Part shown: positions 8,395 through 49,064 of the stretch, piece by piece
How positions within the stretch are numbered: position 1 is the first letter of the stretch
Layout of the letters: each line of letters begins with the position of its first letter
Assembly (NCBI GenBank): GCA_964422925.1
Contig: CAYRDC010000004.1
Span: 19,838-83,837 of the forward strand
Length of the DNA: 64,000 nucleotides
Source of the DNA: an uncultured Chitinophagales bacterium
GTDB lineage: Bacteria; Bacteroidota; Bacteroidia; Chitinophagales; S012-47
Direction of reading: 5' to 3'
Made by a program: the position numbers and the translations under genes
Notes under the pieces: model-generated
The model's input: only the letters and a program-made list of their open reading frames with translations
Told to the model about the DNA's origin: nothing
The model's database searches: none

Positions 8395-8408
8395 TCTGTA
8401 CCCAGTTG

Positions 8409-9539: not shown

Positions 9540-9987
9540 CTTTTTTATAACACTTATTGTCCTCTTAGCGATTTTTTTTGCTTGTAACCAGAAAAATGAT
9601 CGCAACCCAATTAACACATATCTGAAAGATATACTCAATCTAAACCCGAAAAATAACTCATTATATATTTTCGCTCCATCGGTTTCCTGCAAGGGCTGCG
9701 TAAGTATATCACTTAATGAGATTAATGAAAAAGTAGCAGATGATTTGATAAGTAAAATCATTTTCATTACAACTGATACCTTATTGTTTCCAAAAACACT
9801 TCTTCAAAAATCAAAGGTCATTTTAGACACGACACATTACATGGATAGATTAGACGTAAATCTCCCAATTAACAATTTGACACTTTATTATATTGACTCA
9901 TCTGGCAAGGATACAATTATTACATCAAATATTAAAAACAAAACTGATTTTCCAAGTTTAATACGTAATTTTCTACCCAAGAATTAA
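9526..9987 (+). CDS. Thioredoxin-fold-like lipoprotein with a CxxC motif (islet ORF C)
   Basis: The ATG at 9526 gives MPKNNFFITLIVLLAIFFAC. SLYIFAPSVSCKGCV looks like a beta-strand followed by CxxC, and LTLYYIDSSGKD resembles the late thioredoxin-fold strands. It overlaps ORF B by 14 nt. Confidence 0.5.
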   Translation: MPKNNFFITLIVLLAIFFACNQKNDRNPINTYLKDILNLNPKNNSLYIFAPSVSCKGCVSISLNEINEKVADDLISKIIFITTDTLLFPKTLLQKSKVILDTTHYMDRLDVNLPINNLTLYYIDSSGKDTIITSNIKNKTDFPSLIRNFLPKN

Positions 9988-9994
9988 CGAGCAA

Positions 9995-10675
9995 TTATTT
10001 ATACTCATTTAAATTTTCTTTCAGCGCGTTGATTTCTTTTTCGCGCTCTGACAGCTCCTTCTTTTTCTTTTTTTGCTGTTCGTTGTTTTCTTTTAGGTCT
10101 TTTTCTGCCTGCTCAATGCTTTCTTTCCATTTTTTGATATTGTTTTCAAGTGATTTTTGTTCTTTCTCGAATTTGTCAAGCTCGTTTGAGAGGCGCTGAA
10201 ATTCTTTTTGCATTGTTTCCAGCTGTACATTGATAACGGCCCGGGCCTGCTGCACCGCGAAATCGCGAAGCATGTTGTTGGCGGCTTCCCAGGCGTCCGG
10301 ATGGTAAGCCCGGTTCAGATAGGCGCCTCCGAGGTCGAAATAAACGGTCATTTCCACGCCATCTTTTCCGTCCTCGATCTGTGCGTACACATCCACGGTG
10401 TTGGCGCTTAAGGAAGGCAATATGAGGTCATCGCCAAAAAGCTCTTTTTTCACATTGTCTGGTTTGCCCCCATGGTCCTTGATCCATTTCTTCCATTGTT
10501 TGCTCACATCCCTGTCGGAGGCCCCGGGAATGAACACCCGCAGGCCGTACTGCTTGCCCCGGCTCATTTTTTCCTGCACCTGGGTTATTTCAATGCCCTG
10601 TGCGGCAGCCGGCACGCTGTACAGTCCCGCTGCCAGGAAAAGGATGATGAGGCCAAGGGTTTTCATGCATTTCAT
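9995..10675 (-). CDS. Secreted protein with a Lys/Glu-rich C-terminal coiled coil (hypothetical)
   Basis: The ATG at 10675 gives MKCMKTLGLIILFLAAGLYSVPAAAQG. The C-terminal ~80 aa show heptad-like K/E repeats. The longer ORF (to 10735) would overlap the polA stop. Confidence 0.6.
   Translation of the reverse strand: MKCMKTLGLIILFLAAGLYSVPAAAQGIEITQVQEKMSRGKQYGLRVFIPGASDRDVSKQWKKWIKDHGGKPDNVKKELFGDDLILPSLSANTVDVYAQIEDGKDGVEMTVYFDLGGAYLNRAYHPDAWEAANNMLRDFAVQQARAVINVQLETMQKEFQRLSNELDKFEKEQKSLENNIKKWKESIEQAEKDLKENNEQQKKKKKELSEREKEINALKENLNEYK
9998..10006 (+). repeat. Right copy of the 9-bp direct repeat TTTATACTC
   Basis: It exactly matches 7703-7711. It lies in the last three sense codons (EYK) of the minus-strand gene 9995-10675. 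Confidence 0.8.
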
Positions 10676-18508: not shown

Positions 18509-20110
18509 ATGGTAAGATTTCCGCTTTCATTTATTCTGTTTTGGGGTTATTCCCTCCTGGTTTCAGGACAAATCCAGGAAAAGTATTGGGTGTATTTCAC
18601 GGACAAGGACGGTTGTTCGCTGGACCCTTACCAGTATTTTGATCGGAAAGCCATTGAGCGCAGGCAGAAATGCGGGATACCCCTGGTGGAGTTCACTGAT
18701 CTTCCCGTTCGGACCGATTACCTGGAAGTAATTCGGCAACACGTGGATTCCCTCCTCGGGGCCAGTCGCTGGCTCAATGCAGCTTGGGTCCTGGCCACCG
18801 AACAACAGGCTGTCGGGCTGAACAGTATGCCGGGAGTCCTGCGCGTAGTTCCATCCGGTTCACAGGCATATATGGCCGGCTGGAAAGAGGCCGCTCCTCC
18901 TGATTTTGATATCCCGCTGGCCAGAGGGCAAACCCAGCGCCTGCAGGTCGATTCATTCCGGAACCGGGGCTTGGACGGAAGCCATGTGCGCATTGCCGTA
19001 TTCGATATCGGGTTTCCGGGAGTCGATAAGCATCCTGCTTTCGCACATATCCGGGAGGAAGGACGTATCCTGAAAACTTGGAATTTCATAACCGGTAAAG
19101 AAAACGTATACCGCGGAGTCGGCCATGGACGGATGGTCTTATCCTGCATTGCCGGCATGGCGGATTCGCTCCCCCTGGGGCTGGCCCCGAAAGCGGAATT
19201 TCTGCTGGCTGTTACCGAACGTATGATCTCCGAAAACGCATCTGAAGAAGACAACTGGATACTTGCTGCAGAATGGGCTGATAAAAACGGAGCAGACATT
19301 ATCAGTTCATCGCTGGGATATACCTACGAAAGATATTTCCAGAAAGAAATGGACGGTCATACCGCACCGATCAGCCGGGCCGCTAACCTGGCTGCCCATA
19401 AAGGTATATTGATAGTGCAGGCGGCAGGCAATGAAAACGGAAACCGCTGGGGTACCATTATTGCCCCTGCCGATGCGGACAGTGTGCTTACCGTTGCCGG
19501 AACCAACCCGTGGACGGATTATGCCATCAATTTCTCATCCCACGGACCGGCCGCCAATGGCCATCCCAAACCCAATGTAGCTGCTTATGGAACCGTAGTG
19601 GCTGCCGGCCCTCTCAATAAATACCTCTCGGTAAGCGGCACTTCTTTTTCAACTCCCTTGATTGCAGGGTTTGCCGCTTGTGTCATGCAACTCCATCCCG
19701 ACTGGACCAATATGCAGGTGTTCCATGCCATAGAAAAAGCCGGCCATTTGTATCCATACTATGACTACGCCCACGGATACGGCATTCCCCAGGCCGGGAA
19801 AATACTGCACCCCGGTCTGCCCAAGCCTGCCCCCACTTTCACCATAAAATCAGATGTGGATTCCCTGTACATCTTACCTTCTGACTCTGTCTTTACCAAG
19901 CCGGGACCAAAAAATCTATATCTTGCGGTGTACAATTCAGACCATTTTGTGAAGCGATATATGGCAATCCGGTTGGAGGAAACCGGGCAGGTTTCCTTGT
20001 CAAGATGGGACTTTACATCATTGGAAGGCGCCTCTTATCTGCAGATTCACCTGGAAGGATATACTGAAAAAATAAACTTAAAAGACATACCATGGCGAGA
20101 AGAACCTTAA
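18509..20110 (+). CDS. S8 family (subtilisin-like) serine peptidase
   Basis: It has a signal peptide and all three triad contexts: IAVFDIGF (Asp), GVGHGRMV (His) and GTSFSTPLIAG (Ser). Confidence 0.85.
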   Translation: MVRFPLSFILFWGYSLLVSGQIQEKYWVYFTDKDGCSLDPYQYFDRKAIERRQKCGIPLVEFTDLPVRTDYLEVIRQHVDSLLGASRWLNAAWVLATEQQAVGLNSMPGVLRVVPSGSQAYMAGWKEAAPPDFDIPLARGQTQRLQVDSFRNRGLDGSHVRIAVFDIGFPGVDKHPAFAHIREEGRILKTWNFITGKENVYRGVGHGRMVLSCIAGMADSLPLGLAPKAEFLLAVTERMISENASEEDNWILAAEWADKNGADIISSSLGYTYERYFQKEMDGHTAPISRAANLAAHKGILIVQAAGNENGNRWGTIIAPADADSVLTVAGTNPWTDYAINFSSHGPAANGHPKPNVAAYGTVVAAGPLNKYLSVSGTSFSTPLIAGFAACVMQLHPDWTNMQVFHAIEKAGHLYPYYDYAHGYGIPQAGKILHPGLPKPAPTFTIKSDVDSLYILPSDSVFTKPGPKNLYLAVYNSDHFVKRYMAIRLEETGQVSLSRWDFTSLEGASYLQIHLEGYTEKINLKDIPWREEP

Positions 20111-21878: not shown

Positions 21879-24800
21879 ATGTATCGGTTTATCAAAAAAT
21901 TCAGGCCGCGCCTGAAAAACGCCATGGCCATTTACCTGATGGCCGGCTTCTTTTTACCCGCATCAGCAGGCGATACCATAACCGTACAAACATTTACTTT
22001 CGGGTCGCCACAGGAGGGAACCTTCCTGTTTCCGCCCGATACGGTGCGTTTTGAAAAGATTTTGATGTACTACACCCTGAAATGCAATCCGGCCCAGAAT
22101 CCGGCCTGCGGGGAATGGGATTACCTGACCTACACCTACCTGTTTGACCATACCGGGCAGTACGATTCTATCCTGCAGAGCCATCCGAACTTCACGGTGG
22201 GCGGGCTGACCCCGGATTCGCTCAGCCTGGCTTTCCAGCCTGCCTGGAGCTTCCATCCGTATTTTGAATACTTTATCACCTATACCGATACCCTGAGCCA
22301 GCACCAGGGGCAGGTTGGGAACGGAACCCAGCTAACAGCCATACCCTTCGGTACCAACATACACCAAGCCCGGTCATTTCTGCTTTGGAAGGCCTCTGAA
22401 CTGCAGGCTGCCGGCTTGTCAGCTGGGGATATTACAAATCTGAAAGTTTTCTTTACCCAGCTTGGAATCCCGATGAATCACCTGACTATTCGCATGGCGC
22501 ATACAACGGTGGGCACACTCGACAGTCTGTCCTGGCCATCACCGCCCGGCCTCCAGGAAGTTTATCATCGCAAAACGGACTTCCAGGATACCGGCTGGGT
22601 TACATTCAATCTTACCACCCCGTTTAACTGGGACGGCACCTCCAATATCCTCATGGAGATATGTTTTGACAATCCCTCCACCGGTTTGTCATACAAGGCA
22701 AAAGGAGAAACCACCTCCGGCTTTACTAGTGTTTTAACAGCGTTTGGCAGGGATTACGCCCTGAAGTTCCGCGATGCAGACCATGTGGATGTGCCGGTCC
22801 AGGTTTTCAACGATATTGACAGCGCTATCACGATTGAATTCTGGCAGTATGGCGACCCGGATATCCAGCCGCAAAGCGATATCATCTTTGAAGGGATTGA
22901 TTCGGCAGGTAACCGGGTGCTGAACGCGCACCTCCCCTGGGGCAACGGAAGGGTATACTGGGATGCCGGGAATAACGGTAACAGCTACGACCGCATTGAC
23001 AAAGCCGCCAACCCGGCTGATTACGAAGGCCGGTGGAATCACTGGGCCTTTGTGAAAGATGTTGCAACAGGTAGCATGAAAATTTACCTAAACGGGCAGC
23101 TATGGCATTCCGGCACAGGAAAAAACCGGCTGATGAACGGTATTGTAAAGTTTACCATCGGCTCCGGAGCGCACCTGAACTATTTCTATGACGGGATGAT
23201 AAACGAATTCCGGATTTGGAACATCGCCCTGCCGGATTCCCTGATCCGGGACGGCATGTACCGCAAGATTAACAGCAGTCACCCATTCTGGGACAATTTA
23301 AAAGCCTATTACCGGTTTGACGATGCGGTCAGTAATTGCGCAGCCGATTATTCAGATTATTCCAACCTGGCCACCATGTATGGGGCACCGGAATGGGTGC
23401 GTATCCCGGCCTGTGACCTGTTGTTCAAATCCTACAGCGGGCAAACCAGGCCTAACATGATTTTTGAACAAAACACTTACAACGCCTTTGTGGATTCCAC
23501 CCTGATGGTAGATTCCACGCAGCAAAACCAACTCATGGTGGTGCTTTTTGATGATACGACCCAGCCCACGGTACCCACTGACACGTTATGGGCCTGGCCG
23601 GCCTGGTACCACTACACTTACGACAGTGCCGGGCAGGCAATCGATTCCTCCCTGGCCGGCCTGGATACTACTATTTACCATGTAGAACACTACTATTACG
23701 ACCCGCCTTTCGAAATTGTGAACCGCTATGAACTCGGCCGGTTCATCACTCCGTACGGCATCGGTCTGAGCCTCGGCAATGAAGGCTGGACATGGATTTA
23801 TGACGTAACGGATTTCCGGCCCCTGCTGGCCGATTCCGTGCACTTGAAAGCCGGCAACTGGCAGGAGCTCCTGGACATGAAATTCGTAATGATTAAAGGA
23901 ACTCCACCCCGTGATGTAAAAGACATCCGCAACGTGTGGAACGGCAGCCACATGTACAACGCGGCTATCGAAAATGAATTCCTGTATCCTAAAAAATTCT
24001 TCATACCACCTGATGTGGCGCAGGCGAGGTTGCGGATCAATATCACCGGGCATGGCTTTGGCGGAAACCTGAACTGCTCCGAATTCTGTCCGCGCACCAA
24101 TACCGTCCGCGTAAACGGCCAGTTCAAGGCCCTGCAAAACCTCTGGCGGAACGACTGCGACCTGAACCCCTTGTTCCCGCAAGGCGGCACCTGGATCTAC
24201 GACCGGGCCGGCTGGTGCCCCGGATCGGAAGTAAGGCCTTTCTATTATGACCTGAGCAGCAACATCATCCCGGGCGACAGCGTGGAAGTGGATTTTGATA
24301 TGCAGCCCGGCTATGTCTGGAATGGGCAGGGCTCCACCCCCCATTACCGCATAGAATCGCAACTGGTAACCTACGGGCCGCCCAATTTTACCCTGGATGC
24401 CGCTGTGTCTGAAATCATTGCCCCGACCGACTGGGAATATTACAGGCGTTTTAACCCGATTTGCGACAACGCCATCGTAAAAATCCGGAACACGGGTTCT
24501 TCACCACTCACTTCCCTGGATATCTCTTACGGCCCGCAGCAGGGCAACAAGGCTACCTACCACTGGACGGGTAACCTCGGTTTCCTGGAAGATGAAACCG
24601 TTTATCTGCCCCCGTCTGACTGGGGTTCCTGGACCGGGCCGGATATCTTTGAAGTGACGGTTTCCAATCCCAACGGAGGCAATGACGAATACGCTGACAA
24701 CAACACCATGCGCAGTCATTTTCTTCGGACACCGCTTTACGATAACGACCTGGTGCTGTGGCTGCGAACCAACAACGCGGGTTACGAAACCAGCTATATG

Positions 24801-25331
24801 CTCAAAGACGAAAACGGGAACGTGCTGTATTCCCGCTCCAACTGCTCTAGCAACACGGTGTACAAGGATACTTTCCATCTGGCCAACGGATGCTATACCC
24901 TTACCATCAATGACTCCGGGGAAGACGGATTGTACTTCTTTGCCAACAACGATGGCTCCGGGTGGGCCCGGCTCAGAAAAATGAACGGGGTTATTGTAAA
25001 AAACTTCAAAGCCGACTTCGGATCGAAGATTTCACAGCAATTTACCACGGGCTTCCCGATGGGGACCGAAGAACCCGCACCAGAATCTTTCGTGGAGGTT
25101 TATCCCAACCCGGCCAGCGGACTTTTCAATGTGGACGTGAACCTGGCGGAAACCGAAGACCTGGACCTGACTGTTTACGACCTGACGGGACGGGCACTGT
25201 ATCACACATCCAGGCCCGGCTTTCGCCAGGGTATCATTGAGGTAGACCTTAAAGGGTTCCCGGCTGGAATGTATTTGTGTATAATGCATGCAGGAGAATT
25301 TGTATACACCGGCCGCCTGCTGGTTCAGTGA
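21879..25331 (+). CDS. Large secreted protein: LamG/concanavalin-like domain plus PNGase F-related region, with T9SS type A sorting domain
   Basis: It has a signal peptide. The LamG-like block is ITIEFWQYGD...WNHWAFVKD...MKIYLNGQL...INEFRIWN. GHGFGGNLNCSEFCPRTN resembles the peptide-N-glycosidase F C-terminal family. The C-terminus is VEVYPNPASGLFNV...GMYLCIM. Confidence 0.7.
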   Translation: MYRFIKKFRPRLKNAMAIYLMAGFFLPASAGDTITVQTFTFGSPQEGTFLFPPDTVRFEKILMYYTLKCNPAQNPACGEWDYLTYTYLFDHTGQYDSILQSHPNFTVGGLTPDSLSLAFQPAWSFHPYFEYFITYTDTLSQHQGQVGNGTQLTAIPFGTNIHQARSFLLWKASELQAAGLSAGDITNLKVFFTQLGIPMNHLTIRMAHTTVGTLDSLSWPSPPGLQEVYHRKTDFQDTGWVTFNLTTPFNWDGTSNILMEICFDNPSTGLSYKAKGETTSGFTSVLTAFGRDYALKFRDADHVDVPVQVFNDIDSAITIEFWQYGDPDIQPQSDIIFEGIDSAGNRVLNAHLPWGNGRVYWDAGNNGNSYDRIDKAANPADYEGRWNHWAFVKDVATGSMKIYLNGQLWHSGTGKNRLMNGIVKFTIGSGAHLNYFYDGMINEFRIWNIALPDSLIRDGMYRKINSSHPFWDNLKAYYRFDDAVSNCAADYSDYSNLATMYGAPEWVRIPACDLLFKSYSGQTRPNMIFEQNTYNAFVDSTLMVDSTQQNQLMVVLFDDTTQPTVPTDTLWAWPAWYHYTYDSAGQAIDSSLAGLDTTIYHVEHYYYDPPFEIVNRYELGRFITPYGIGLSLGNEGWTWIYDVTDFRPLLADSVHLKAGNWQELLDMKFVMIKGTPPRDVKDIRNVWNGSHMYNAAIENEFLYPKKFFIPPDVAQARLRINITGHGFGGNLNCSEFCPRTNTVRVNGQFKALQNLWRNDCDLNPLFPQGGTWIYDRAGWCPGSEVRPFYYDLSSNIIPGDSVEVDFDMQPGYVWNGQGSTPHYRIESQLVTYGPPNFTLDAAVSEIIAPTDWEYYRRFNPICDNAIVKIRNTGSSPLTSLDISYGPQQGNKATYHWTGNLGFLEDETVYLPPSDWGSWTGPDIFEVTVSNPNGGNDEYADNNTMRSHFLRTPLYDNDLVLWLRTNNAGYETSYMLKDENGNVLYSRSNCSSNTVYKDTFHLANGCYTLTINDSGEDGLYFFANNDGSGWARLRKMNGVIVKNFKADFGSKISQQFTTGFPMGTEEPAPESFVEVYPNPASGLFNVDVNLAETEDLDLTVYDLTGRALYHTSRPGFRQGIIEVDLKGFPAGMYLCIMHAGEFVYTGRLLVQ

Positions 25332-27746: not shown

Positions 27747-30104
27747 TTAACGCAACAGGGTAAGATTGCCGCGGTGGTGGATAATGTCTTTCCCGCAGCG
27801 CATCACAATAATATAAACATATACTCCCATTTCCTGGGGTCTTCCTTCAAAAGTACCGTCCCAGGATATTAGCGGGTCGTTCGTTTCAAACACTTTTTCT
27901 CCCCACCGGTTAAATACCTGGAAACTGATTAATTGGTTTTGGCCGAAATCAACCAGTCTTAATTCATCGTTCAACCCATCCCCGTTCGGAGAGAAGGCAT
28001 TGGGTATGTACAATTGGTCACAGATGGGAATCAGCTTTATGGTTACTTCGTCAGAGGCTTTGCAGCCGTTTTGTCCGGTTACCGTAATGGTGTAAGTCAT
28101 GGGTTGGGACGGTAAGGCCCAAGTATTCAGTTGGAACGGGTTTGTGACTAATGGATCCGGCTGCCAGTGATAGGCAACCCCGTTGGTAACAGCCCACAGC
28201 CATACGGAATCGCCATAATAAACCGCGGTATCCGGCCTGGCAGTTACTTCGGGAAGCGGCAAAACGGTTACTGTAACGGTAGCCGTGTCATTGAAGCAAT
28301 CATCCGATACATTTACGGTATAGGTTGTGGTAACCGGAGGCGAAACCCTTGGATTAGGATCGAAAGGTTTTAGCACACCTGCCTGCGGGCTCCATTCGTA
28401 ATAAAGCCCTCCCGAAGCCGAAAGCCTGGCAAAATCCCCGAAGCAAATAGTCGTATCGCTCGACACCGTGGCCTGCACAGGATTCACAATATTCACGGTG
28501 CGGGTAACCGTATCAAGGCATCCGTGATCGGTGCTGACTATCAGCGTGACCTGGTAAGTGCCGGCCTGCGAATAAACATGCGCGGGAAAGGAACCGAATT
28601 CAGGCGGACTCCCATCCCCGAAATCCCATTTCCAACTGGTTATGGTGCCAGAAGAAACCACACTGGCATCAGTGAATGGCAGTGGGGCATTCAAACACGG
28701 TGTGCCAAACTTGAAATCCGCGACCGGTTTCGGATATACTTCCACCTGCCGGGCTATCTGTTCTACACACCCGATGCTATTGGTAACCCGTAAGATCACC
28801 TGGTAGGTGCCGCCCTGCCCGTACGCATGCTGGGGATTGGGTATCGTATCAACCGTTCCATCCCCGAAGAACCATTCATACTTTGTGATTTGCCCGTAGG
28901 TGGTCTGGCTCAGGTCAGTGAATAATACGGGTTCATCCGGACAGGCAGACATTGCCTGAAAATCAGCTGTCAGGCTTGGATACAACTTCAATACCACTGT
29001 ATCCGTGTCAGAACAGATGTAGCCCGGATTGGCAATTAACCGGACAAGATATGTACCGGTATCAGGGTAAGTAAAAGAAGGCTCAAAAAGGTTCGAAGTA
29101 TCTGATTGTATGCCCGGCACGCCAAAATCCCAATGGAAATTGCTGGCCCCGACACTTTGATTGGTGAAACTCACATTAAAGTTACTGCAGTTATAGATCG
29201 TATCCTTGTTTCCGGGAGTCGGAATACTGGCCACCACAAGGGGGTTACAATTGGCAACATTGAACTGAAATTCCCTTCGGTGAATGCCCAGTAACACTCC
29301 GTTCCGGTATTCTTTTACACAAACACCAACCACGTATTGTCCAATCTGAGTGGGTGTACCTGTCAGTAAACCGGTAGCCGGGTCAATGCTCAAAGGAGGA
29401 TTAGCCGGCAGGGGGTTGGTTTCATTATATGGCGCTTGGTAGATCACTTTTGCGTAAGGTGGAGGGCTGGCAGGAATCGGCTGGGGCGCCAATTGGGAAC
29501 CGCCTGTGAAAGGAGCACACAAGCTGTACACCAGGGAATCCCCGTCCGGGTCCGTGGCGCTATGGTCGAAGGTCAGCGGTTCATAGGCACAAATAACGAT
29601 TGGAGGGAAATTATTAAAATAAGGACTGCTATTGCAAACTGCTTTAGCGGGATCCGGAATATGGGCCATGTAGGTCGCCCCTTGTGTATTGGGATTTACG
29701 AGGTTTATGATGGTTGAATTACGGCAGCATCGCTGATACACTGCATAATAACCACCTGTTGAAGGCGGCAGATTCACATTGAACGTGTAAATACCTTCTT
29801 CCACGCAAATATTTGGCGGTGCAATCATACAGGGATTACTGGTATTGACCGGTAGCGATGTGATGGTAGGATTATCCAGCAATTCAATATAGCTTCCACC
29901 AACAGCCGGAAAGATGAAAAGGTGGGCTGGCATATCAAATGGAGCGCCTCCTCCGTTGCAATCGCGGTAAACTTTCAGGGTGATCTGGTAATTATTATTG
30001 CCCGTACACTGGTAGCTGATCTCTCCACCTATGATATGGAAAGCCTCCATACGTGACAGCATGACCTGGGCTAAAATCCAGAAGAAAAAGATTATTCGCT
30101 TCAC
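27747..30104 (-). CDS. PKD-repeat surface protein with T9SS type B (gliding-associated CHU_C) sorting domain
   Basis: It has several WDFGDG / FGDG PKD repeats. The C-terminus is IPNAFSPNGDGLNDELRL...FNRWGEKVFE...WDGTFEGRP. It uses a GTG start. Confidence 0.85.
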   Translation of the reverse strand: MKRIIFFFWILAQVMLSRMEAFHIIGGEISYQCTGNNNYQITLKVYRDCNGGGAPFDMPAHLFIFPAVGGSYIELLDNPTITSLPVNTSNPCMIAPPNICVEEGIYTFNVNLPPSTGGYYAVYQRCCRNSTIINLVNPNTQGATYMAHIPDPAKAVCNSSPYFNNFPPIVICAYEPLTFDHSATDPDGDSLVYSLCAPFTGGSQLAPQPIPASPPPYAKVIYQAPYNETNPLPANPPLSIDPATGLLTGTPTQIGQYVVGVCVKEYRNGVLLGIHRREFQFNVANCNPLVVASIPTPGNKDTIYNCSNFNVSFTNQSVGASNFHWDFGVPGIQSDTSNLFEPSFTYPDTGTYLVRLIANPGYICSDTDTVVLKLYPSLTADFQAMSACPDEPVLFTDLSQTTYGQITKYEWFFGDGTVDTIPNPQHAYGQGGTYQVILRVTNSIGCVEQIARQVEVYPKPVADFKFGTPCLNAPLPFTDASVVSSGTITSWKWDFGDGSPPEFGSFPAHVYSQAGTYQVTLIVSTDHGCLDTVTRTVNIVNPVQATVSSDTTICFGDFARLSASGGLYYEWSPQAGVLKPFDPNPRVSPPVTTTYTVNVSDDCFNDTATVTVTVLPLPEVTARPDTAVYYGDSVWLWAVTNGVAYHWQPDPLVTNPFQLNTWALPSQPMTYTITVTGQNGCKASDEVTIKLIPICDQLYIPNAFSPNGDGLNDELRLVDFGQNQLISFQVFNRWGEKVFETNDPLISWDGTFEGRPQEMGVYVYIIVMRCGKDIIHHRGNLTLLR

Positions 30105-36599: not shown

Positions 36600-36600
36600 G

Positions 36601-36627
36601 AAAAGCCACCTTTTCCCGGTGGCTTTT
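36601..36627. terminator. Bidirectional rho-independent terminator between convergent genes
   Basis: A 10-bp stem pairs aaaagccacc (36601-36610) with ggtggctttt (36618-36627) around a 7-nt loop. The A4/T4 arms give a U-tract in either direction. Confidence 0.65.
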
Positions 36628-36654
36628 CTATGGGCCGTCTGAGGGTGAGGCCTG

Positions 36655-38763
36655 TCATCGCATGATGAGGAATGAACGGGCCTGGTTTCCTTCCGCGCTA
36701 TGAATAATCATCCAGTACATGCCATCTTCCAGCTTGCTCGCATCAAATTCGATATGATGAGGCCCTTTCGACAGGAATCCTTCATATACTGTAGCCAGAA
36801 TACGCCCACTGATGTCAGTAACCTGCATGGCCACCTGGCCGGGATCTGCAACAGAAAAATCAATTTTCAACTGGTCGGACACCGGATTCGGATAAAGGAC
36901 CAACTCACCGATAGATGCTCCCAAGGGATCTATTCCGCTGCTTACCACGTGAAGCGTATCGCAATAGGTATCCATGCACATGGTAGCTGAATCGGTAATT
37001 GCCAGGCAAACTACATAGATACCCGGATTTTGATAAAGGTGCACCGGGTTTTCAAGGATGCTGAAATTCCCGTCCCCGAAATACCAGAGGTAGTAGAGGT
37101 TATTCCCGGTGGATTGGTTGGTAAAGGTAGCAATCATACCGTTGAGTGAATAGGTGAAATCAGCCTGACAACTCCCGCCTCCGACATGAACTGTATCGCA
37201 ATAGGTATCAACACAACTGTCAATGGTGGTCATGGTCAGGCATACCAAATACGAACCGCTCTGGGAATATGTGTGCCACGGATTGGGCATATTGCTGGTT
37301 GAGCCGTCTCCGAAATCCCAGTGGAAGGAAGGCATGATGCCCGTGGATTTATTAATGAAGTGTACCGCATTGCCAAAGGTGAAGTAATGGAAATCGGCAT
37401 GACAGCCCGTACCTCCGCCAACAGGCACCATATGGCACCAGGTACTGGTACAGCTGTCGTCCGTGATAATGGTCAAACAAACATGATACATTCCCGGTTG
37501 ACTGTAGGTATGTGCCGGATTCTGCTGAGTGGAAGTATCCCCGTCCCCGAAGTCCCAGTGCCAGCTTACAATGTTTCCGGTAGCAACTGATTGATCGTGG
37601 AAATGCACCATAAAACTGCCGGGAGTGAGCTGGAAGCTGAATTTCGCGTGGCATATGGCCGGGTTGCTGTTGCATGGACCTGGGGTCCAGCTTGTTACTC
37701 CGTGGTAATGCATGGCAATGCAGGCATTCTGGTAGGTAACACTGTCACAGCCGCACACCGGCATATACACAGCCGGGCAGGAAACGGTGGTATCAATCAG
37801 GCTGCTGTCAATGCATTGCTGCTGTCCCGTAGTGACGGTTATGGTGTCGCAATAGGTGTCCTGGCAGCCGGCAGAATCGTCTATGCTCAGGCAAACCACA
37901 TAGGTACCGGCCTGTGAGTATGTATGCCACGGGTTGGGCACATGGCTCGTAGTGCTGTCCCCAAAGTCCCAGGTATAATGCAGGTCATACCCCGAACTCA
38001 TGTTATTGAAATGAACATTCAGCCCGTTGCTCCACGAAGTGAAAAAAGCATTGCAGGGCTGGTTCTGTCCTACCGTCACTGAATCGCAGAAGGTGCTCGT
38101 GCAGCTGTCAGTAGTCTGAATGGTGAGGCAAACCAGGTAAGTGCCCGGGCTGCTGTAATGATGGAACGGGTTTTTCATGTGCGAGCTGTCCCCGTCCCCA
38201 AAATCCCAGTGCCAGGAGGTAATATATCCCGAGGCAGTTGACTGATCGATAAAATGCACTCCGCTCTGGAAAATCTGATAGGTAAAATCTGCCTGGCAGG
38301 AGCCGCTTCCGGTACAAGGCCCCGGGGTCCAGGTTGTAACCCCATGCCAATTGTAGGCTTCACAGGCATTGTTGTAAGTAACCGAGTCGCAGCCGCATAC
38401 CGGCATATATACCATCGGGCAGGCTACCGTAGTGTCAATGATCGAACTGTCAATACATACATTGGATGTGCCTACTGCAATGGTGTCGCAAAAGGTATCC
38501 TGGCAACCTGCATTATTCGAGATGGTCAGACACACGACATACGTGCCGGATGCCGAATACATGTGTACAGGATTCTTGAAATAGGAATGGGTTCCGTCTC
38601 CGAAATCCCAGAACCAGTGCACCCAGTTATTGTAAGTCGACTGGTCGGTGAAATGCACGATTTGCCCGTTGACGCTGTAGCTGAAATCGGCCTGGCAGTT
38701 AGCTTGGGCTATTGCGAAATGTGCCAGGGTAAGAAACGGTAGTAAAACAATCAATCTCTTCAT
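36655..38763 (-). CDS. T9SS cargo protein: six PKD repeats interleaved with two Kazal-like cysteine modules
   Basis: It has a signal peptide and six roughly 80-aa repeats with W(D/Y)FGDG. Two modules read CP.VYMPVCGCDSVTY.NAC...WTPGPC. The C-terminus is LVLYPNPVSDQLKI...GMYWMII. Confidence 0.8.
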   Translation of the reverse strand: MKRLIVLLPFLTLAHFAIAQANCQADFSYSVNGQIVHFTDQSTYNNWVHWFWDFGDGTHSYFKNPVHMYSASGTYVVCLTISNNAGCQDTFCDTIAVGTSNVCIDSSIIDTTVACPMVYMPVCGCDSVTYNNACEAYNWHGVTTWTPGPCTGSGSCQADFTYQIFQSGVHFIDQSTASGYITSWHWDFGDGDSSHMKNPFHHYSSPGTYLVCLTIQTTDSCTSTFCDSVTVGQNQPCNAFFTSWSNGLNVHFNNMSSGYDLHYTWDFGDSTTSHVPNPWHTYSQAGTYVVCLSIDDSAGCQDTYCDTITVTTGQQQCIDSSLIDTTVSCPAVYMPVCGCDSVTYQNACIAMHYHGVTSWTPGPCNSNPAICHAKFSFQLTPGSFMVHFHDQSVATGNIVSWHWDFGDGDTSTQQNPAHTYSQPGMYHVCLTIITDDSCTSTWCHMVPVGGGTGCHADFHYFTFGNAVHFINKSTGIMPSFHWDFGDGSTSNMPNPWHTYSQSGSYLVCLTMTTIDSCVDTYCDTVHVGGGSCQADFTYSLNGMIATFTNQSTGNNLYYLWYFGDGNFSILENPVHLYQNPGIYVVCLAITDSATMCMDTYCDTLHVVSSGIDPLGASIGELVLYPNPVSDQLKIDFSVADPGQVAMQVTDISGRILATVYEGFLSKGPHHIEFDASKLEDGMYWMIIHSAEGNQARSFLIMR

Positions 38764-38786: not shown

Positions 38787-39890
38787 CTATTGAATACTAA
38801 TTTTCCGGGCGCTCCAGGCATTCCCGGCCAATACATGAACCAGGTAAATGCCTGGTGAAATATCTTGCAAGGAAATCGTTGCTTCGTTGATCAAATAGGT
38901 AACCGGAACGGTAACTAACCTGCCACAGAGATCCAATAGTTGAACCTCCTGAATATTGCTCCCGCTGATTGTAAGCATCTGCCGGGCAGGATTGGGATAA
39001 ACCCGTACTGGTGTTTCTTTTTTAACCGGGGGTAAATCCGCTGACGGGTCCACCACAATGAAGGAAACCGAATCGGCATATACCGGGATAGGCACTTCCG
39101 CACTGTCAATCAGGACGACATTCGCGAAACTGATGGTCAGGGTATCGATAGCATCCAGGTTCTTGCCCGCGATGTTTTGCTCCATGATAAAGCTGATCCG
39201 GGCAATCGGACCATTGCCATAGCTGTTTTGATGGTTCAGCTTAGTGATAGCTGCCGTAAAACTTCCCTGCTGGTAAAAATCTTTGTCAAAGGTCAGCAGG
39301 GCAGAAGGAACCCCAATCCAAGTACTGCTGTCAAGTGTCATGTGAACGGAGCCCGAATCGATAAGGCTGCTGGTATAGCGCAAAGTAAAAGCCAGGCCAT
39401 AAAAATTGGTTGGCATACCCATTTGTCCCAGAATTAAGGTAAGGGTAAGGGTGTCTGATACATGCAAAGTGTCCTGAATTACCGGCATAAACCTAAGCCA
39501 CGGATTGCCCATTGTGCCGGGAATCATCGGGTACATATTGGAGGAAAGGGCAGCCGTATCATGGGTTTTTCCAATGTTATGATGAATGGCCACCAGATCG
39601 CCCAGGTTCACAATGCCGTCACCGTTGCAATCTGCATGGCTGGTGGGTATTCCGTTCCAGAGGGTATCAGTTCCCCAATTGGGCGCGGGTTCTCCCTGCC
39701 AGTTGATGGTGGCATTGGGTCGCACCGGCCCGGAATGGCCGAATTTTATGCCCAGGGTCAGGATATCAAAAATATCCGCATGTCCGTCATGATTAGCATC
39801 ACCGGGCCACACGATCTCCGTTAACTGAGCCTGTACGAAGGGAAGGCCGGTAAAAAACAACAATGCAAAAACGGTTAAAAATCTTTTCAT
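38787..39890 (-). CDS. T9SS cargo protein with dockerin-like repeats and a cohesin-like module
   Basis: The ATG at 39890 gives a signal peptide. GDANHDGHADIFDILTL and DCNGDGIVNLGDLVAI are dockerin-type Ca-binding repeats. A roughly 150-aa beta-rich module with YGLAFTLRY and GNGPIARISF follows. The C-terminus is VRVYPNPARQMLTI...GIYLVHV. Confidence 0.7.
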   Translation of the reverse strand: MKRFLTVFALLFFTGLPFVQAQLTEIVWPGDANHDGHADIFDILTLGIKFGHSGPVRPNATINWQGEPAPNWGTDTLWNGIPTSHADCNGDGIVNLGDLVAIHHNIGKTHDTAALSSNMYPMIPGTMGNPWLRFMPVIQDTLHVSDTLTLTLILGQMGMPTNFYGLAFTLRYTSSLIDSGSVHMTLDSSTWIGVPSALLTFDKDFYQQGSFTAAITKLNHQNSYGNGPIARISFIMEQNIAGKNLDAIDTLTISFANVVLIDSAEVPIPVYADSVSFIVVDPSADLPPVKKETPVRVYPNPARQMLTISGSNIQEVQLLDLCGRLVTVPVTYLINEATISLQDISPGIYLVHVLAGNAWSARKISIQ

Positions 39891-40063
39891 AGCCGGCAGG
39901 TTCACTAATCGACTAAAGCAAAAATCACCATTCTATTTTATAGAAACCAGTACAATTTTCTTTATTTTCCGGATACTTTTCTTACTATTTTTTCAGTTCA
40001 TTTATTCCCAGACAAGACTTTTGTTATTGATTTTGTTTATTTTGTAGCCTATTTTAAGAAAAA

Positions 40064-46957: not shown

Positions 46958-47195
46958 GAGTTATCGTATTTACGTTATCTGATTAAAAATCAATAATTCT
47001 TTACTCGGTGATTTTCGAGAGCGAGGCAAATTTCAAAATTTATTTTCAAACCTTAAAGCTTTTGAGGCAAAATATCTGTTCTAATCCCTGATTTTTAGCA
47101 GAATAGCCGGAAATCATTGTCTACCGGGTCCGTAAACCGTCTGATTCATCCGGGGAAATCCCATAACTTTATACTTGCCTGAAAGGATAGCACTC

Positions 47196-49064
47196 ATGAA
47201 AAGATGCATTTTCTGGTTTTCCCTGCTGATACTTTCCGGTTTCAATCTGGAAGCCCAGGAATATAAATGGCAGGCGGAACACTTTACCATTCCCCCGGTA
47301 GCCACTGTTCATGCCGGGCAAATCCGCACAGACTGGATGCCCGTTTTGCAAAACCTGGAAATGCCGGCTCCTGGCGGAAAATCCTGGCGGGCCCATCTTA
47401 TTGAACTGAAAAAAGAAAGAGCCAAAAAAAGCGCACCGGAGTGGCAGGAAGGAACCCACCAGCCGGGCGAAGGTGCGCCATTACCGATACTTGGCCTTAA
47501 TTTCAAGGGTAACGGATATAACGGTCATGCCCCAAACGATAATTACTGCGCTATATCCAATGACGGTATCCTGATTTCGGTGATCAACACCACCATCTGG
47601 ATGTATGACACCCGGCAGGATTCCCTGCTCAAAAACGTATCGCTCAATGCCTTTTCAGACACGCTTGGATTAAATGGGGTAAAGTTTGATCCGAAAATTT
47701 TGTACGATCCTGAAGCCGACCGTTTCATCATGATCTTTCTGAACGGTTTCCTGGATTCCACTACGCGGATAATTGTCGGATTCAGCCAGACGGCAGACCC
47801 CACAGGTTTATGGAACCTATACAGCCTCAATGGCAATCCATTGAACAACGGCACCTGGTCTGATTATCCCAGCATTGGAATTTCGGGCACAGACCTGTTT
47901 ATAGGCGTGAATACCTTTACCAACGGCTCGGTGAACAACAGCGGGTTTACCGAATCAGTTTTCTGGCAGATCAGCAAAAGCGATGGCTACCAGGGGCAGG
48001 CGCTTACGGCAGATTACTACCACGGGCTAACCCTGGCCGGAAAACCTTTTTTCAACATCGCTCCGATTAACGGTGGTTCAGGTCCATACGGAGACAGTAT
48101 GATTTTGCTTTCGAACCGGAACCTTGACACCCTGTTCAATGACTCCATTTTTATTTTCCGGGTCACGGGTCCGGCAGGCAATGCAACCCTTGACATTGTT
48201 ACCTGCCATGCGGATGTGCCATACAGCCTGCCTCCACAGGCAAGGCAGCCGAAAGGCAATGAATTTGATACAAACGATTCCAGGATACTGGCCGGGTTTT
48301 ATGAAAACGGAACCGTGCAGTTCACAGCCTGCACTCTGGCGCCCACGACCGGGTATGCCGGTATTTATCACGGACTTATTAAAGATCCCTTCGGGCCGGC
48401 TCCCGGTTGCCGCGCCAATATCCTGGCAGATTCGGCTCTTGATCTGGGTTACCCGAACATAAGCTATTCCGGGAAAGATTCCTTTGACCAAGAATCCATC
48501 ATCAGCTTTAATTTCACCAGCCCTTCTGTTAATCCGGGTTGCGGTGCGGTGTATTTCAGCAATGAGGGAACCTATTCTTCCATTTTGAAAGTTCAGGAAG
48601 GCACTGATTTCGTAGATTTGGTTTCCGGGGCTTATGAACGCTGGGGCGATTACACGGGCAGCCAGCGTAAATACAACGAGCCGGGCGTGGTGTGGATGTG
48701 CGGCTCATACGGCAGGAAAAGGAATCAGTTTCCGCGGCATATCAGCAGCACCTGGATTGCCGAACTCAAAAGCCCCGATTCATTGCACCAACATATTCGG
48801 GTGCCTGAGCCCGGGGTCACGGTTTTTCCGAATCCGTTCCGGGATATGGTGTATTTCAGCTTTTCCCTTCCGGCCGATGCTGTGGTGTCGGCTTCCGTAT
48901 ATGACATACAGGGCAGGCTGGTCAAACGCCTGGTGGAGGATTTTGCCAAAAGCGGTTTGAATACCATTGGTTTCAACACGCAACCCCTGTCCCGGGGCAC
49001 TTACATCCTGGAAGTCAGAAGCGGTGAGTCCGTATTGCTCTCCGAAAAAATCATCAAGCAGTAA
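47196..49064 (+). CDS. Hypothetical secreted protein with T9SS type A sorting domain
   Basis: The ATG at 47196 gives the signal MKRCIFWFSLLILSGFNLEAQ. The C-terminus is VTVFPNPFRDMVYFSF...GTYILEV. The body is unassigned. Confidence 0.65.
   Translation: MKRCIFWFSLLILSGFNLEAQEYKWQAEHFTIPPVATVHAGQIRTDWMPVLQNLEMPAPGGKSWRAHLIELKKERAKKSAPEWQEGTHQPGEGAPLPILGLNFKGNGYNGHAPNDNYCAISNDGILISVINTTIWMYDTRQDSLLKNVSLNAFSDTLGLNGVKFDPKILYDPEADRFIMIFLNGFLDSTTRIIVGFSQTADPTGLWNLYSLNGNPLNNGTWSDYPSIGISGTDLFIGVNTFTNGSVNNSGFTESVFWQISKSDGYQGQALTADYYHGLTLAGKPFFNIAPINGGSGPYGDSMILLSNRNLDTLFNDSIFIFRVTGPAGNATLDIVTCHADVPYSLPPQARQPKGNEFDTNDSRILAGFYENGTVQFTACTLAPTTGYAGIYHGLIKDPFGPAPGCRANILADSALDLGYPNISYSGKDSFDQESIISFNFTSPSVNPGCGAVYFSNEGTYSSILKVQEGTDFVDLVSGAYERWGDYTGSQRKYNEPGVVWMCGSYGRKRNQFPRHISSTWIAELKSPDSLHQHIRVPEPGVTVFPNPFRDMVYFSFSLPADAVVSASVYDIQGRLVKRLVEDFAKSGLNTIGFNTQPLSRGTYILEVRSGESVLLSEKIIKQ

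What the first reader, a model, noticed from the sequence alone, without database searches (positions are those of the whole stretch)
36655..38763. T9SS cargo built from six PKD repeats interleaved with two atypical Kazal-like modules
The 702-aa protein reads signal peptide, PKD1, Kazal-like 1 (nt 38314-38457), PKD2, PKD3, Kazal-like 2 (nt 37672-37815), PKD4, PKD5, PKD6, then the T9SS sorting domain. The two inserted modules are CIDSSIIDTTVACPMVYMPVCGCDSVTYNNACEAYNWHGVTTWTPGPC and CIDSSLIDTTVSCPAVYMPVCGCDSVTYQNACIAMHYHGVTSWTPGPC. They reproduce the Kazal core spacing: C2-x7-C3, then x10 to C4, with P-V-C-G-x-D-x-x-T-Y-x-N-x-C. They lack the canonical C5 (C4-x2-C5). Instead they carry an extra Cys two residues after C3, which could pair with C1. 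Kazal inhibitors are mainly known from eukaryotes. A surface-displayed, duplicated, re-wired version in a T9SS substrate suggests a secreted protease inhibitor or decoy. At the DNA level the two modules are diverged, roughly 70% identical by eye, so the duplication is old and has been maintained.
Basis: partly seen in the sequence, partly recalled or inferred. Interest (0 to 1): 0.65.

Follow-up and report, generated by a model that had tools for sequence, protein, structure and literature searches.

The report
Re-wired bacterial Kazal modules in T9SS cargo
A secreted surface protein of an uncultured Bacteroidota bacterium carries two copies of a Kazal-type protease-inhibitor domain with one disulfide bond moved; this variant proves to be common across the phylum, is named from profile matches in sequence databases, and I found no study of it.

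Summary
ORF 36655-38763 (-) encodes 702 aa: signal peptide, PKD1, Kazal-like 1, PKD2, PKD3, Kazal-like 2, PKD4-6, T9SS type-A sorting domain.

Both modules pass Pfam Kazal_1 (31.5 and 32.3 bits; cut-off 21). Module 1 folds confidently (pLDDT 92.4), and its top 50 PDB matches are all Kazal or follistatin-type Kazal domains. The best is the non-classical leech inhibitor LDTI.

Cys covariation over about 900 related modules supports retained C2-C4 and C3-C6 bonds. The C1-C5 bond is replaced by a bond between a Cys on an N-terminal extension and the Cys in 'CGCD'.

The variant is not rare. A two-module profile hit 5,971 cluster representatives. At least 501 loci were confirmed in species-representative genomes, almost all Bacteroidota. 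It occurs as ~75-aa single-module secreted proteins, as tandem arrays with a T9SS tail, or between PKD domains.

Inhibition is untested. In its favour, recently diverged modules differ most at P1 and P4, and no catalytic domain is fused. Against it, P1 is often Thr, Asp or Glu, and no protease gene is a conserved neighbour.

Verdict: a new variant of a known kind, of moderate interest.

The parts
36655..38763 (-). Whole gene: 702-aa T9SS cargo protein (SP, PKD1, Kaz1, PKD2, PKD3, Kaz2, PKD4, PKD5, PKD6, CTD). Its 36 Cys fit 6x4 (PKD) plus 2x6 (Kazal).
38704..38763 (-). Signal peptide, aa 1-20 (MKRLIVLLPFLTLAHFAIAQ). Assigned by inspection: basic n-region, hydrophobic core, AxA-like end.
   Evidence: sequence; no signal-peptide predictor was available
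38458..38703 (-). PKD domain 1 (aa 21-102; boundaries approximate)
38314..38457 (-). Kazal-family module 1 (aa 103-150). Predicted P1 is Met117 and P1' is Val118. Inferred disulfides: C103-C125, C115-C134, C123-C150.
38053..38313 (-). PKD domain 2 (aa 151-237)
37816..38052 (-). PKD domain 3 (aa 238-316; motif WDFGDS)
37672..37815 (-). Kazal-family module 2 (aa 317-364). Predicted P1 is Ala331 and P1' is Val332. Inferred disulfides: C317-C339, C329-C348, C337-C364.
37408..37671 (-). PKD domain 4 (aa 365-452)
37171..37407 (-). PKD domain 5 (aa 453-531)
36919..37170 (-). PKD domain 6 (aa 532-615)
36658..36918 (-). T9SS type-A C-terminal sorting domain (Por_Secre_tail / TIGR04183; matched at aa 623-699)
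36600..36628 (-). Terminator-like 11-bp stem-loop, 27 nt after the stop codon, between this gene and the convergent amidohydrolase gene
38787..39905 (-). Upstream gene on the same strand, 23 nt away (possibly co-transcribed): 372-aa T9SS cargo with a sub-threshold dockerin-like repeat. Listed as context; membership of the same functional unit is not shown.

Best explanation
The gene encodes a beads-on-a-string surface or secreted protein.

Export (inferred from domain matches and from general knowledge of T9SS, not shown here): Sec takes the protein across the inner membrane. Its 18 predicted disulfides form in the periplasm. The type IX secretion system carries it across the outer membrane by way of the type-A C-terminal domain. 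That domain is then cleaved and the protein is anchored to the surface or released.

Roles of the parts: the six PKD (Ig-like) domains act as spacers. The two inserted modules are true members of the Kazal superfamily and belong to a Bacteroidota-wide subfamily with a re-wired disulfide set. C2-C4 and C3-C6 are kept. The C1-C5 bond that ties the N-terminus to the helix is replaced by a bond from a Cys on a conserved 12-residue N-terminal extension to the Cys in 'C-G-C-D', at the start of the beta-hairpin.

Most likely function: each module is a standard-mechanism (Laskowski-type) canonical-loop inhibitor of serine endopeptidases. It would present the C2-x7-C3 loop with P1 = Met117 (module 1) or Ala331 (module 2). 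That would make the protein a two-headed inhibitor aimed at subtilisin-, chymotrypsin- or elastase-like enzymes, shielding the cell surface and other exported proteins from extracellular proteases in a dense microbial mat.

What is shown: the architecture, Kazal homology, the predicted fold, the Cys co-variation, the distribution, and contact-site hypervariability.

What is inferred: the exact disulfide partners, the secretion route, inhibitory activity, the target class and the ecological role.

The confidence of 0.5 is for the inhibitor mechanism. Confidence that these are Kazal-family domains with the described Cys re-wiring is about 0.9.
For: Homology and fold:
- Kazal_1 passes its curated cut-off for each module alone.
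- phmmer and profile matches to solved inhibitors include LDTI at 5e-11 over positions 14-53, plus SPINK1, OMTKY3 and the subtilisin-bound CrSPI-1 entry 3qtl.
- The AF2 model has pLDDT 92.4, with strand 23-25, helix 34-40 and strand 46-48.
- The Foldseek top 50 are all Kazal or follistatin-type Kazal domains. Best is 1an1_I: probability 0.99, TM 0.73, 2.4 A.

Disulfides:
- The GCD Cys and C5 are mutually exclusive (770 modules against 6; Fisher 1e-45).
- The GCD Cys co-occurs with a far N-terminal Cys (1e-49).
- C2 and C4 are lost together (1e-35).
- 766 of 784 GCD modules have an N-terminal Cys, and 778 of 784 lack C5.

Function:
- The loop scaffold is conserved: Asn at P15' in 96%, Tyr at P2', and P-V-C-G.
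- Canonical contact positions are the most variable. Entropy is 2.89 against 1.85, p = 0.004.
- In 2,423 close module pairs, P1 and P4 are the two positions that differ most. Contact positions differ at 0.53 against 0.28, p = 0.0013.
- The two window modules differ at P4, P1, P14' and P18'.
- Of 85 diverse carriers, none has a catalytic domain. 51 have a T9SS tail, and several are almost pure tandem arrays.
- About 75-aa single-module secreted or lipoprotein forms exist, so the module is a functional unit on its own.
Against: - No activity data exist.
- The P1 spectrum across the family is T, A, D, E, L, Q, with only 3% Lys or Arg. From my knowledge of the OMTKY3 P1-variant series, beta-branched and acidic P1 residues bind most serine proteases poorly.
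- The single-module subfamily has a conserved loop, 'CIEIYQPVC' with P1 Glu in 91 of 117. That fits one conserved partner of unknown type rather than an arms race.
- No protease gene is a conserved neighbour in 80 loci.
- Kazal-like domains in agrin, follistatin and SPARC keep the same motifs without being established inhibitors.
- The hypervariability statistics are not phylogenetically independent, and the contact positions are exposed loop residues anyway.
- The disulfide partners rest on covariation.
- Foldseek E-values are weak (0.08 or worse). This is possibly because the domain is only 54 residues, but I did not test that.
Confidence: 0.5

Rival explanations
1. The modules are non-inhibitory Kazal-like domains. 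They would serve as rigid, disulfide-stapled spacers or ligand-binding units in an adhesin-like surface protein, as the follistatin-type Kazal modules of agrin, follistatin and SPARC do in animal extracellular-matrix proteins. The variable loop would bind something other than a protease active site.
For: - The PKD-rich, adhesin-like architecture, and fusion partners elsewhere that are Ig-like, cadherin-like or SprB repeats.
- P1 residues are often Thr, Asp or Glu.
- There is no conserved protease neighbour.
- Agrin is the top sequence hit in the PDB.
- The conserved loop in the single-module subfamily suggests a fixed partner.
Against: - Proteins made only of a signal peptide, modules and a sorting tail, and ~75-aa single-module proteins, have nothing to space apart.
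- Variability is concentrated at exactly the canonical protease-contact positions, with P1 ranked first.
- The canonical C2-x7-C3 loop length and the Asn at P15' are retained.
- The best structural match is a true inhibitor, LDTI.
Confidence: 0.33
2. The modules regulate the bacterium's own exported peptidases. They would act as a tethered inhibitor holding self-made T9SS or periplasmic serine proteases inactive until release, comparable in role to the inhibitors of secreted proteases that I recall being described in Tannerella. Defence against foreign proteases would not be the main job.
For: - The same organism exports peptidases: the S8 at 18509-20110 has a signal-like N-terminus, and the M43 at 5093-6229 has a T9SS tail.
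- The conserved P1 Glu in the single-module lipoprotein-like forms suggests a conserved endogenous partner.
Against: - There is no operon or neighbourhood link to any peptidase, either in the window or in 80 related loci.
- There is no fusion to a peptidase domain in 85 carriers.
- Hypervariable P1 in the multi-module forms fits diverse external targets better.
- M43 is a metallopeptidase, which is not a Kazal target class.
Confidence: 0.12
3. The Kazal resemblance is a chance or convergent Cys-rich motif, and the segments are merely linkers between PKD domains.
For: The Pfam match covers only profile positions 7-29 of 49. Foldseek E-values are above 0.05.
Against: - Scores exceed the curated cut-off.
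- The LDTI alignment reaches the last Cys.
- The AF2 model is confident, and all 50 top structural hits are Kazal or follistatin-type Kazal domains.
- Hundreds of homologous modules have invariant PVCG and TYxN motifs.
- The 20:9 ratio of synonymous to non-synonymous codon differences indicates maintenance by selection.
Confidence: 0.02

Closest known systems
Classical Kazal serine-protease inhibitors (MEROPS family I1; Pfam PF00050), such as turkey ovomucoid third domain and SPINK1
   Same: - Profile match above the cut-off.
- The predicted core of a helix plus a small beta-sheet.
- Spacing C2-x7-C3 and C3-x10-C4.
- The P-V-C-G-x-D-x-x-T-Y-x-N-x-C motif and Asn at P15'.
- A loop much like SPINK1's (CPMVYMPVCG here, CTKIYDPVCG there).
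- Multi-headed tandem use, and hypervariable contact residues.
   Different: - There is no C5, so the C1-C5 bond is absent.
- A new Cys two residues after C3 pairs (by inference) with a Cys on a 12-residue N-terminal extension.
- The host is bacterial, and export is through T9SS.
- The P1 spectrum is poor in Lys and Arg and rich in Thr, Ala, Asp and Glu.
- No activity has been demonstrated.
Non-classical Kazal inhibitors, chiefly leech-derived tryptase inhibitor LDTI (PDB 1an1, 1ldt, 2kmo)
   Same: - It is the best structural and full-length sequence match: TM 0.73, 2.4 A, and E = 5e-11 over profile positions 14-53.
- It shares the short C-terminal half and Pro at P2.
- An 8-Cys subset of the bacterial family ('NCICP...C-HGV') keeps the LDTI-type C1-x-C2 and C4-x3-C5 pair.
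   Different: - The window modules lack both LDTI-type Cys residues. They have the extension-to-GCD pair instead.
- LDTI has no N-terminal extension.
- LDTI has P1 Lys and is a free single domain from an animal.
Atypical oomycete Kazal-like effectors EPI1 and EPI10 of Phytophthora infestans
   Same: They are secreted microbial Kazal-like proteins with several modules that inhibit a subtilisin-like (S8) protease, tomato P69B (cited in PMC9904509). From memory, not tested here: some of their domains lack a canonical disulfide and still inhibit.
   Different: They are eukaryotic. As I recall, their deviation is the loss of a bond rather than its relocation. They have no T9SS or PKD context.
Follistatin-type Kazal-like modules in agrin, follistatin, SPARC and RECK
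   Same: They are Kazal-like modules set in large multidomain extracellular proteins and interleaved with other domains. Agrin is the top PDB sequence hit.
   Different: They are animal proteins with a different Cys layout (C4-x6-C5 in the non-GCD modules). They are mostly not established as protease inhibitors. This is the model for the main rival explanation.
Other bacterial periplasmic or surface protease inhibitors, such as ecotin (I11) and bacterial alpha-2-macroglobulin (I39)
   Same: The proposed ecological role is the same: protecting the cell envelope from exogenous proteases. PMC9904509 says this of ecotin. One GCD-module carrier also has a bacterial alpha-2-macroglobulin MG3 domain.
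   Different: The folds and mechanisms are unrelated. These are analogous in function only.

Membership tests
Kazal domain (Pfam PF00050 Kazal_1 / MEROPS I1) | Profile score above the curated gathering cut-off | tested here: met
   The modules score 31.5 and 32.3 bits alone and the whole protein 38.2, against a cut-off of 21. Kazal_2 is borderline: 25.3 for the whole protein, 20.6 and 22.4 for single modules, cut-off 22.8. The match covers only profile positions 7-29 of 49.
Kazal domain (Pfam PF00050 Kazal_1 / MEROPS I1) | Kazal fold: a central helix packed against a small three-stranded sheet | tested here: met
   This rests on a predicted structure only. AF2 gives pLDDT 92.4 with E23-25, H34-40 and E46-48. 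The Foldseek top 50 are all Kazal or follistatin-type Kazal domains, the best at TM 0.73 and 2.4 A.
Kazal domain (Pfam PF00050 Kazal_1 / MEROPS I1) | Disulfides C2-C4 and C3-C6 | tested here: met
   Both Cys pairs are present at canonical spacing. C2 and C4 are lost together in 27 modules (Fisher 1e-35). C6 is present in 773 of 773 GCD modules. Pairing is inferred from covariation, not measured.
Kazal domain (Pfam PF00050 Kazal_1 / MEROPS I1) | Disulfide C1-C5 (N-terminal segment to helix) | tested here: not met
   There is no Cys within 7 residues after C4 in either window module. 778 of 784 GCD modules lack C5. It is replaced by a pair between the extension Cys and the GCD Cys.
Kazal domain (Pfam PF00050 Kazal_1 / MEROPS I1) | Canonical reactive-site loop (C2-x7-C3, P1 at C2+2) supported by a conserved Asn at P15' | tested here: met
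   The loops are CPMVYMPVC and CPAVYMPVC. Asn at P15' is present in both modules and in 96% of the family.
Kazal domain (Pfam PF00050 Kazal_1 / MEROPS I1) | Tight, substrate-like inhibition of a serine peptidase | not testable with these tools
   This needs biochemistry. The only indirect support is hypervariability at contact positions.
Non-classical (LDTI-type) Kazal | C1 immediately before C2 (C-x-C) and C5 four residues after C4 | tested here: not met
   The window modules read V-A-C-P / V-S-C-P and C-E-A-Y-N / C-I-A-M-H, with no such Cys. The feature is present only in an 8-Cys subset of homologues.
T9SS type-A cargo | C-terminal sorting domain (TIGR04183 / PF18962) above the cut-off, at the extreme C-terminus | tested here: met
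   Scores are 35.9 bits (cut-off 23) and 43.1 bits (cut-off 27), at aa 623-699 of 702.
T9SS type-A cargo | N-terminal Sec signal peptide | tested here: inconclusive
   MKRLIVLLPFLTLAHFAIAQ looks like a signal peptide by inspection. No predictor was available.
T9SS type-A cargo | T9SS machinery in the same genome, and actual secretion | not tested
   I did not look for core T9SS genes. At least five other genes in the window carry T9SS sorting tails, which implies the system is present.
PKD domain (PF18911 / PF00801) | Profile matches above the cut-off, six copies | tested here: met
   PKD_4 scores 276.6 bits with 6 stretches. PKD scores 186.5 bits with 6 stretches.

The most novel reading that the evidence does not exclude
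Bacteroidota possess a large family of surface-displayed and secreted Kazal inhibitors that has not been studied experimentally. The family has its own disulfide topology: an extension-to-hairpin staple in place of C1-C5. Its reactive-site residues are diversifying under an extracellular protease arms race between bacteria, or between bacteria and grazers, phages or hosts. The window protein would be a two-headed member presented on a PKD stalk. This would add a major bacterial branch, and a new structural subtype, to a family treated in the literature as essentially eukaryotic. It would also reopen the question of where Kazal domains originated.
Probability: 0.35. Interest if true: 0.7.

Novelty: new variant of a known kind. 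Interest (0 to 1): 0.5.

Why it matters
Kazal inhibitors are among the best-studied protein protease inhibitors, but the experimental literature I know of deals with animals, apicomplexans and oomycetes.

This work shows that one re-wired variant is abundant in Bacteroidota. A profile of the window's two modules hit 5,971 cluster representatives. At least 501 loci were confirmed in species-representative genomes. Most carriers examined have a T9SS sorting tail.

If the modules inhibit, they would be a widespread, unexplored layer of extracellular protease control in environmental Bacteroidota from mats, freshwater and marine plankton. They would also be a natural experiment in how far the Kazal scaffold tolerates moving a disulfide, which is relevant to engineering small inhibitors.

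If they do not inhibit, they become a bacterial counterpart of the follistatin-type structural and binding modules of animal matrix proteins.

Either result is cheap to obtain, because ~75-82-aa single-module versions exist in cultured strains (Hymenobacter actinosclerus DSM 15310, Echinicola marina).

Tried and rejected
- A word-indexed search with one 55-aa module found nothing, because the query was too short for the index. The whole-protein, exhaustive-profile and 96-module-alignment searches replaced it.
- Literature searches pairing Kazal with type IX secretion, T9SS, Bacteroidetes plus PKD, Flavobacteri*, prokaryotes plus MEROPS, and bacterial genomes found no paper on a bacterial or T9SS Kazal family. 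One search was mis-specified, because Kazal was optional, and was useless. The library lacks most subscription journals, so absence there is not proof of absence.
- Transcription evidence: the only metatranscriptome from the source sample is tiny and kept as contigs, and it shows nothing over the gene. This is uninformative.
- A conserved-neighbour search in 80 loci found only clade-level synteny with housekeeping genes (MscS-type channel, deoxyhypusine synthase, Arg/Orn decarboxylase) and no protease.
- A link to the S8 peptidase at 18509-20110 was considered and rejected for lack of any positional or architectural connection.
- Direct reading of disulfide geometry from the AF2 model was not possible, because coordinates are not exposed. 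I used Cys covariation instead.
- I first read an extra C-terminal Cys ('C-x-C' at the module end) as a compensating partner for modules lacking the N-terminal Cys. I rejected this: in tandem arrays that Cys is simply the first Cys of the next module.
- Occurrence outside Bacteroidota: loci labelled Comamonadaceae (L019, L058) encode proteins with Bacteroidota-style features, and L058 ends in a 'YPNP...' T9SS-like tail. They are probably mis-binned. The Nitrosopumilus-labelled L028 is unresolved.
Full report
**1. Observation.**

The ORF at 36655-38763 on the minus strand is real. It starts with ATG and encodes 702 aa.

Pfam finds six PKD_4 stretches (E = 6.2e-84). It also finds a Por_Secre_tail at aa 623-699 (43.1 bits, cut-off 27) and two Kazal_1 stretches (38.2 bits, cut-off 21). 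NCBIfam TIGR04183, the T9SS type-A sorting domain, scores 35.9 bits against a cut-off of 23.

The domain order is SP, PKD1, Kaz1, PKD2, PKD3, Kaz2, PKD4, PKD5, PKD6, CTD.

All 36 Cys are accounted for: four per PKD domain and six per module.

The modules are 70.8% identical in DNA (102/144) and 71% in protein. Twenty codons differ synonymously and nine non-synonymously. So the duplication is old and the peptide sequence has been maintained.

The window has no other Kazal core.

**2. Are the modules Kazal domains?**

Each module alone passes the curated Kazal_1 cut-off, at 31.5 and 32.3 bits. The match covers only profile positions 7-29 of 49, which is the reactive loop through to C4.

Against the sequences of solved structures, the hits are all Kazal or Kazal-like proteins: agrin, ovomucoid, SPINK7, SPINK1, rhodniin and the subtilisin-bound CrSPI-1. 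The leech tryptase inhibitor LDTI, a 'non-classical' Kazal, aligns from C2 to the last Cys. With a 96-module profile its E-value is 5e-11 over positions 14-53.

AlphaFold2 on module 1 with a 96-sequence alignment gave mean pLDDT 92.4. The model has a strand at 23-25, a helix at 34-40 and a strand at 46-48.

In Foldseek against the PDB, all 50 listed matches are Kazal or follistatin-type Kazal domains. The best is LDTI (1an1_I: probability 0.99, TM 0.73 normalised to the target, 2.4 A over 39 columns). E-values are weak, 0.08 or worse. The 54-residue domain size may explain that, but I did not test it.

No solved structure has a Cys at the 'GCD' position, and none covers the N-terminal extension.

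**3. Disulfide re-wiring.**

I could not read coordinates from the model, so I used Cys covariation across homologous modules.

In 626 full-length modules aligned to a family HMM, Cys occupies profile positions 3, 15, 23, 25, 34 and 50 in 97-100% of cases.

The associations on raw sequences are:
- The GCD Cys (position 25) and a canonical C5 are nearly mutually exclusive: 770 modules have GCD without C5, and 6 have both (Fisher 1e-45).
- The GCD Cys co-occurs with a far N-terminal Cys (1e-49).
- C2 and C4 are lost together in 27 modules (1e-35).
- 766 of 784 GCD modules have an N-terminal Cys 12-23 residues before C3, and 778 of 784 lack C5.
- In proteins with no GCD module, 133 of 140 modules have C5.

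A small subset ('NCICP...C-HGV', for example in P0127 and P0133) has eight Cys. It combines the LDTI-type C1-x-C2 and C4-x3-C5 pair with the position-3/25 pair.

So the position-3 Cys is best seen as a new Cys on a conserved extension (C-I-D-x-S-x-I-D-x-x), not as the classical C1. The new staple most probably arose alongside the C1-C5 bond before replacing it.

There are two sub-layouts. The N-terminal Cys lies 12 residues before C2 in the majority, including both window modules, and 7 before C2 in the minority.

These counts are not phylogenetically independent. The pairings are inferences.

**4. Distribution.**

The whole-protein search returned 120 listed relatives. Thirty-eight of them carry 99 'PVCGC[D/N]' modules. 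These lie mostly between PKD domains, or as a single module just before the sorting tail.

An exhaustive HMMER scan of 1.84 billion cluster representatives with the two-module profile found 5,971 proteins at E <= 1e-3, 1,912 at <= 1e-10 and 282 at <= 1e-30. This total includes canonical eukaryote-type Kazal proteins. Among the best 150, 133 of the 142 newly retrieved proteins carry GCD modules.

Nearly all are Bacteroidota: Flavobacteriales including Crocinitomicaceae, Saprospiraceae, Chitinophagales, Lewinellaceae, Sphingobacteriales and Hymenobacter. The few loci labelled otherwise look mis-binned or are unresolved.

Among 85 diverse carriers, all match Kazal_1. Fifty-one have Por_Secre_tail and 13 have PKD domains. 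The rest carry Ig-like, cadherin-like or SprB-type repeats, and none has a catalytic domain. Some are almost pure tandem arrays, such as P0122 with 14 modules in 907 aa.

The 96-module profile also retrieved 731 proteins. The top 120 are 50-94 aa long (mostly about 75) and carry a single module behind a signal or lipoprotein-type leader. Most of them (89 of the 118 with a GCD core) have exactly the window modules' six-Cys layout, and the rest differ slightly in spacing or carry an extra Cys. NCBI names some of them 'Kazal-type serine protease inhibitor family protein', for example in Echinicola marina and E. salinicaeni.

Hymenobacter actinosclerus DSM 15310 encodes an 82-aa version with P1 Met.

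**5. What the gene sits in.**

The window is a chromosomal stretch of an uncultured Bacteroidota bacterium from microbial-mat and hydrothermal-vent metagenomes.

The upstream gene, 23 nt away on the same strand, is another T9SS cargo with a sub-threshold dockerin-like repeat. Downstream, two convergent amidohydrolase genes end at 36599. An 11-bp stem-loop lies between the convergent genes.

The window holds at least five other T9SS cargo genes, including an M43 metallopeptidase.

The S8 peptidase at 18509-20110 is real (Peptidase_S8, 121 bits) and has a signal-like N-terminus. It has no T9SS tail, lies about 16.5 kb away on the other strand, and shows no link to this gene.

Across 80 related loci, no neighbour family recurs in more than 11. 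Those that recur are housekeeping genes.

**6. Function.**

In favour of true inhibition:
- The canonical loop length (C2-x7-C3) is kept. So are the scaffold residues known from classical Kazals: Asn at P15' in 96%, Tyr at P2', and P-V-C-G.
- Positions equivalent to the protease-contact residues of ovomucoid third domain are more variable than the rest (entropy 2.89 against 1.85, p = 0.004).
- In 2,423 module pairs that are 65-95% identical, P1 and P4 are the two positions that differ most often (71% each). Contact positions differ at 0.53 against 0.28 (p = 0.0013).
- The window's own modules differ at nine positions. Four of these are P4 (A/S), P1 (M/A), P14' (N/Q) and P18' (E/I).
- Contact-residue hypervariability is the classic signature of inhibitory Kazal domains. 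That statement comes from my knowledge of the Laskowski ovomucoid work and was not tested here.
- Single-module and module-only proteins show that the module is a functional unit in itself.

Against it:
- P1 across the family is mostly T, A, D, E, L or Q, with 3% K or R. From my knowledge of the OMTKY3 P1 series, Thr, Asp and Glu are poor P1 residues for most serine proteases.
- The single-module subfamily has a fixed loop, 'CIEIYQPVC'.
- No protease is a conserved neighbour.
- Animal follistatin-type Kazal modules keep the same motifs without established inhibitory activity.

The window modules themselves carry P1 Met and Ala. These are compatible with subtilisin-, chymotrypsin- or elastase-type targets.

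I put the inhibitor mechanism at about 0.5, a non-inhibitory binding or spacer role at about 0.33, and self-protease regulation at about 0.12.

**7. Comparison with what is known, and novelty.**

The modules are members of the Kazal superfamily by profile, predicted fold, two of the three disulfides and the loop. They fail one defining feature of the classical family, the C1-C5 bond. They also fail the LDTI-type Cys definition.

Sequence databases already flag such proteins from profile matches. The window protein's own relatives are labelled only 'PKD domain-containing protein'.

I found no paper describing a bacterial Kazal family, its T9SS association or the relocated disulfide. The searchable library omits most subscription journals. 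From memory only, reviews of prokaryotic inhibitors mention scattered, uncharacterised family-I1 homologues in bacteria.

I therefore rate it a new variant of a known kind.

**8. Verdict.**

Rarity is not upheld, and inhibition and the S8 link are not shown.

Interest is moderate, at 0.5. It is a clean, cheaply testable lead into a large family that nobody appears to have studied experimentally, but it is not a categorically new kind of system.

Noticed in passing
window 8001-10000: GC content drops to 0.307 against about 0.5 in the rest of the window. ORFs 7900-8394, 8406-9539 and 9487-9987 match no Pfam family above its cut-off; the only hit is a weak DUF4221 match. This may be a foreign island.
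   Followed up: partly
window 5093-6229, 21879-25331, 27747-30104, 38787-39905, 47175-49064: The window is dense in T9SS cargo genes: an M43 metallopeptidase, a PNGase-F-like/LamG protein, a PKD protein with a CHU_C tail, a 372-aa protein with a sub-threshold dockerin-like repeat, and a 629-aa protein with no other recognised domain.
   Followed up: partly
window 36600-36628: An 11-bp G+C-rich stem-loop (GAAAAGCCACC-GGGAAAA-GGTGGCTTTTC) lies between the convergent Kazal-PKD and amidohydrolase genes. It is probably a bidirectional terminator.
   Followed up: partly
L019 3938-5041, L058 3104-4402, L028 3591-4826: In other carriers, GCD-Kazal modules alternate with a second Cys-rich repeat of about 60 aa ('C[IL]DL..IDFG.C.M.MG...G.C..SGCGW..G.DYS.Y.F...DC..C'). 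It may be Pfam DUF6970, which matched 3 of 85 carriers. Its function is unknown.
   Followed up: no
proteins P0127 and P0133: These carry eight-Cys GCD modules ('NCICP...C-HGV') that combine the LDTI-type C1-C5 pair with the new extension-to-GCD pair. They may be an evolutionary intermediate between non-classical Kazal domains and the six-Cys bacterial form.
   Followed up: partly
L070 3923-4171 (Hymenobacter actinosclerus DSM 15310): An 82-aa lipoprotein-like protein with a single GCD-Kazal module and P1 Met, in a cultured type strain. It is a convenient experimental handle.
   Followed up: partly
proteins P0263-P0382: Single-module proteins of about 75 aa, many apparently from marine Flavobacteriaceae by their source names, have a strongly conserved reactive-site loop 'CIEIYQPVC' with P1 Glu in 91 of 117. 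This contrasts with the hypervariable loop of the multi-module proteins and hints at one conserved partner.
   Followed up: partly
L019, L058, L028 (record titles): Contigs binned as Comamonadaceae or Nitrosopumilus encode GCD-Kazal proteins. L058 ends in a Bacteroidota-style T9SS-like tail, so these MAG assignments look like binning errors.
   Followed up: partly
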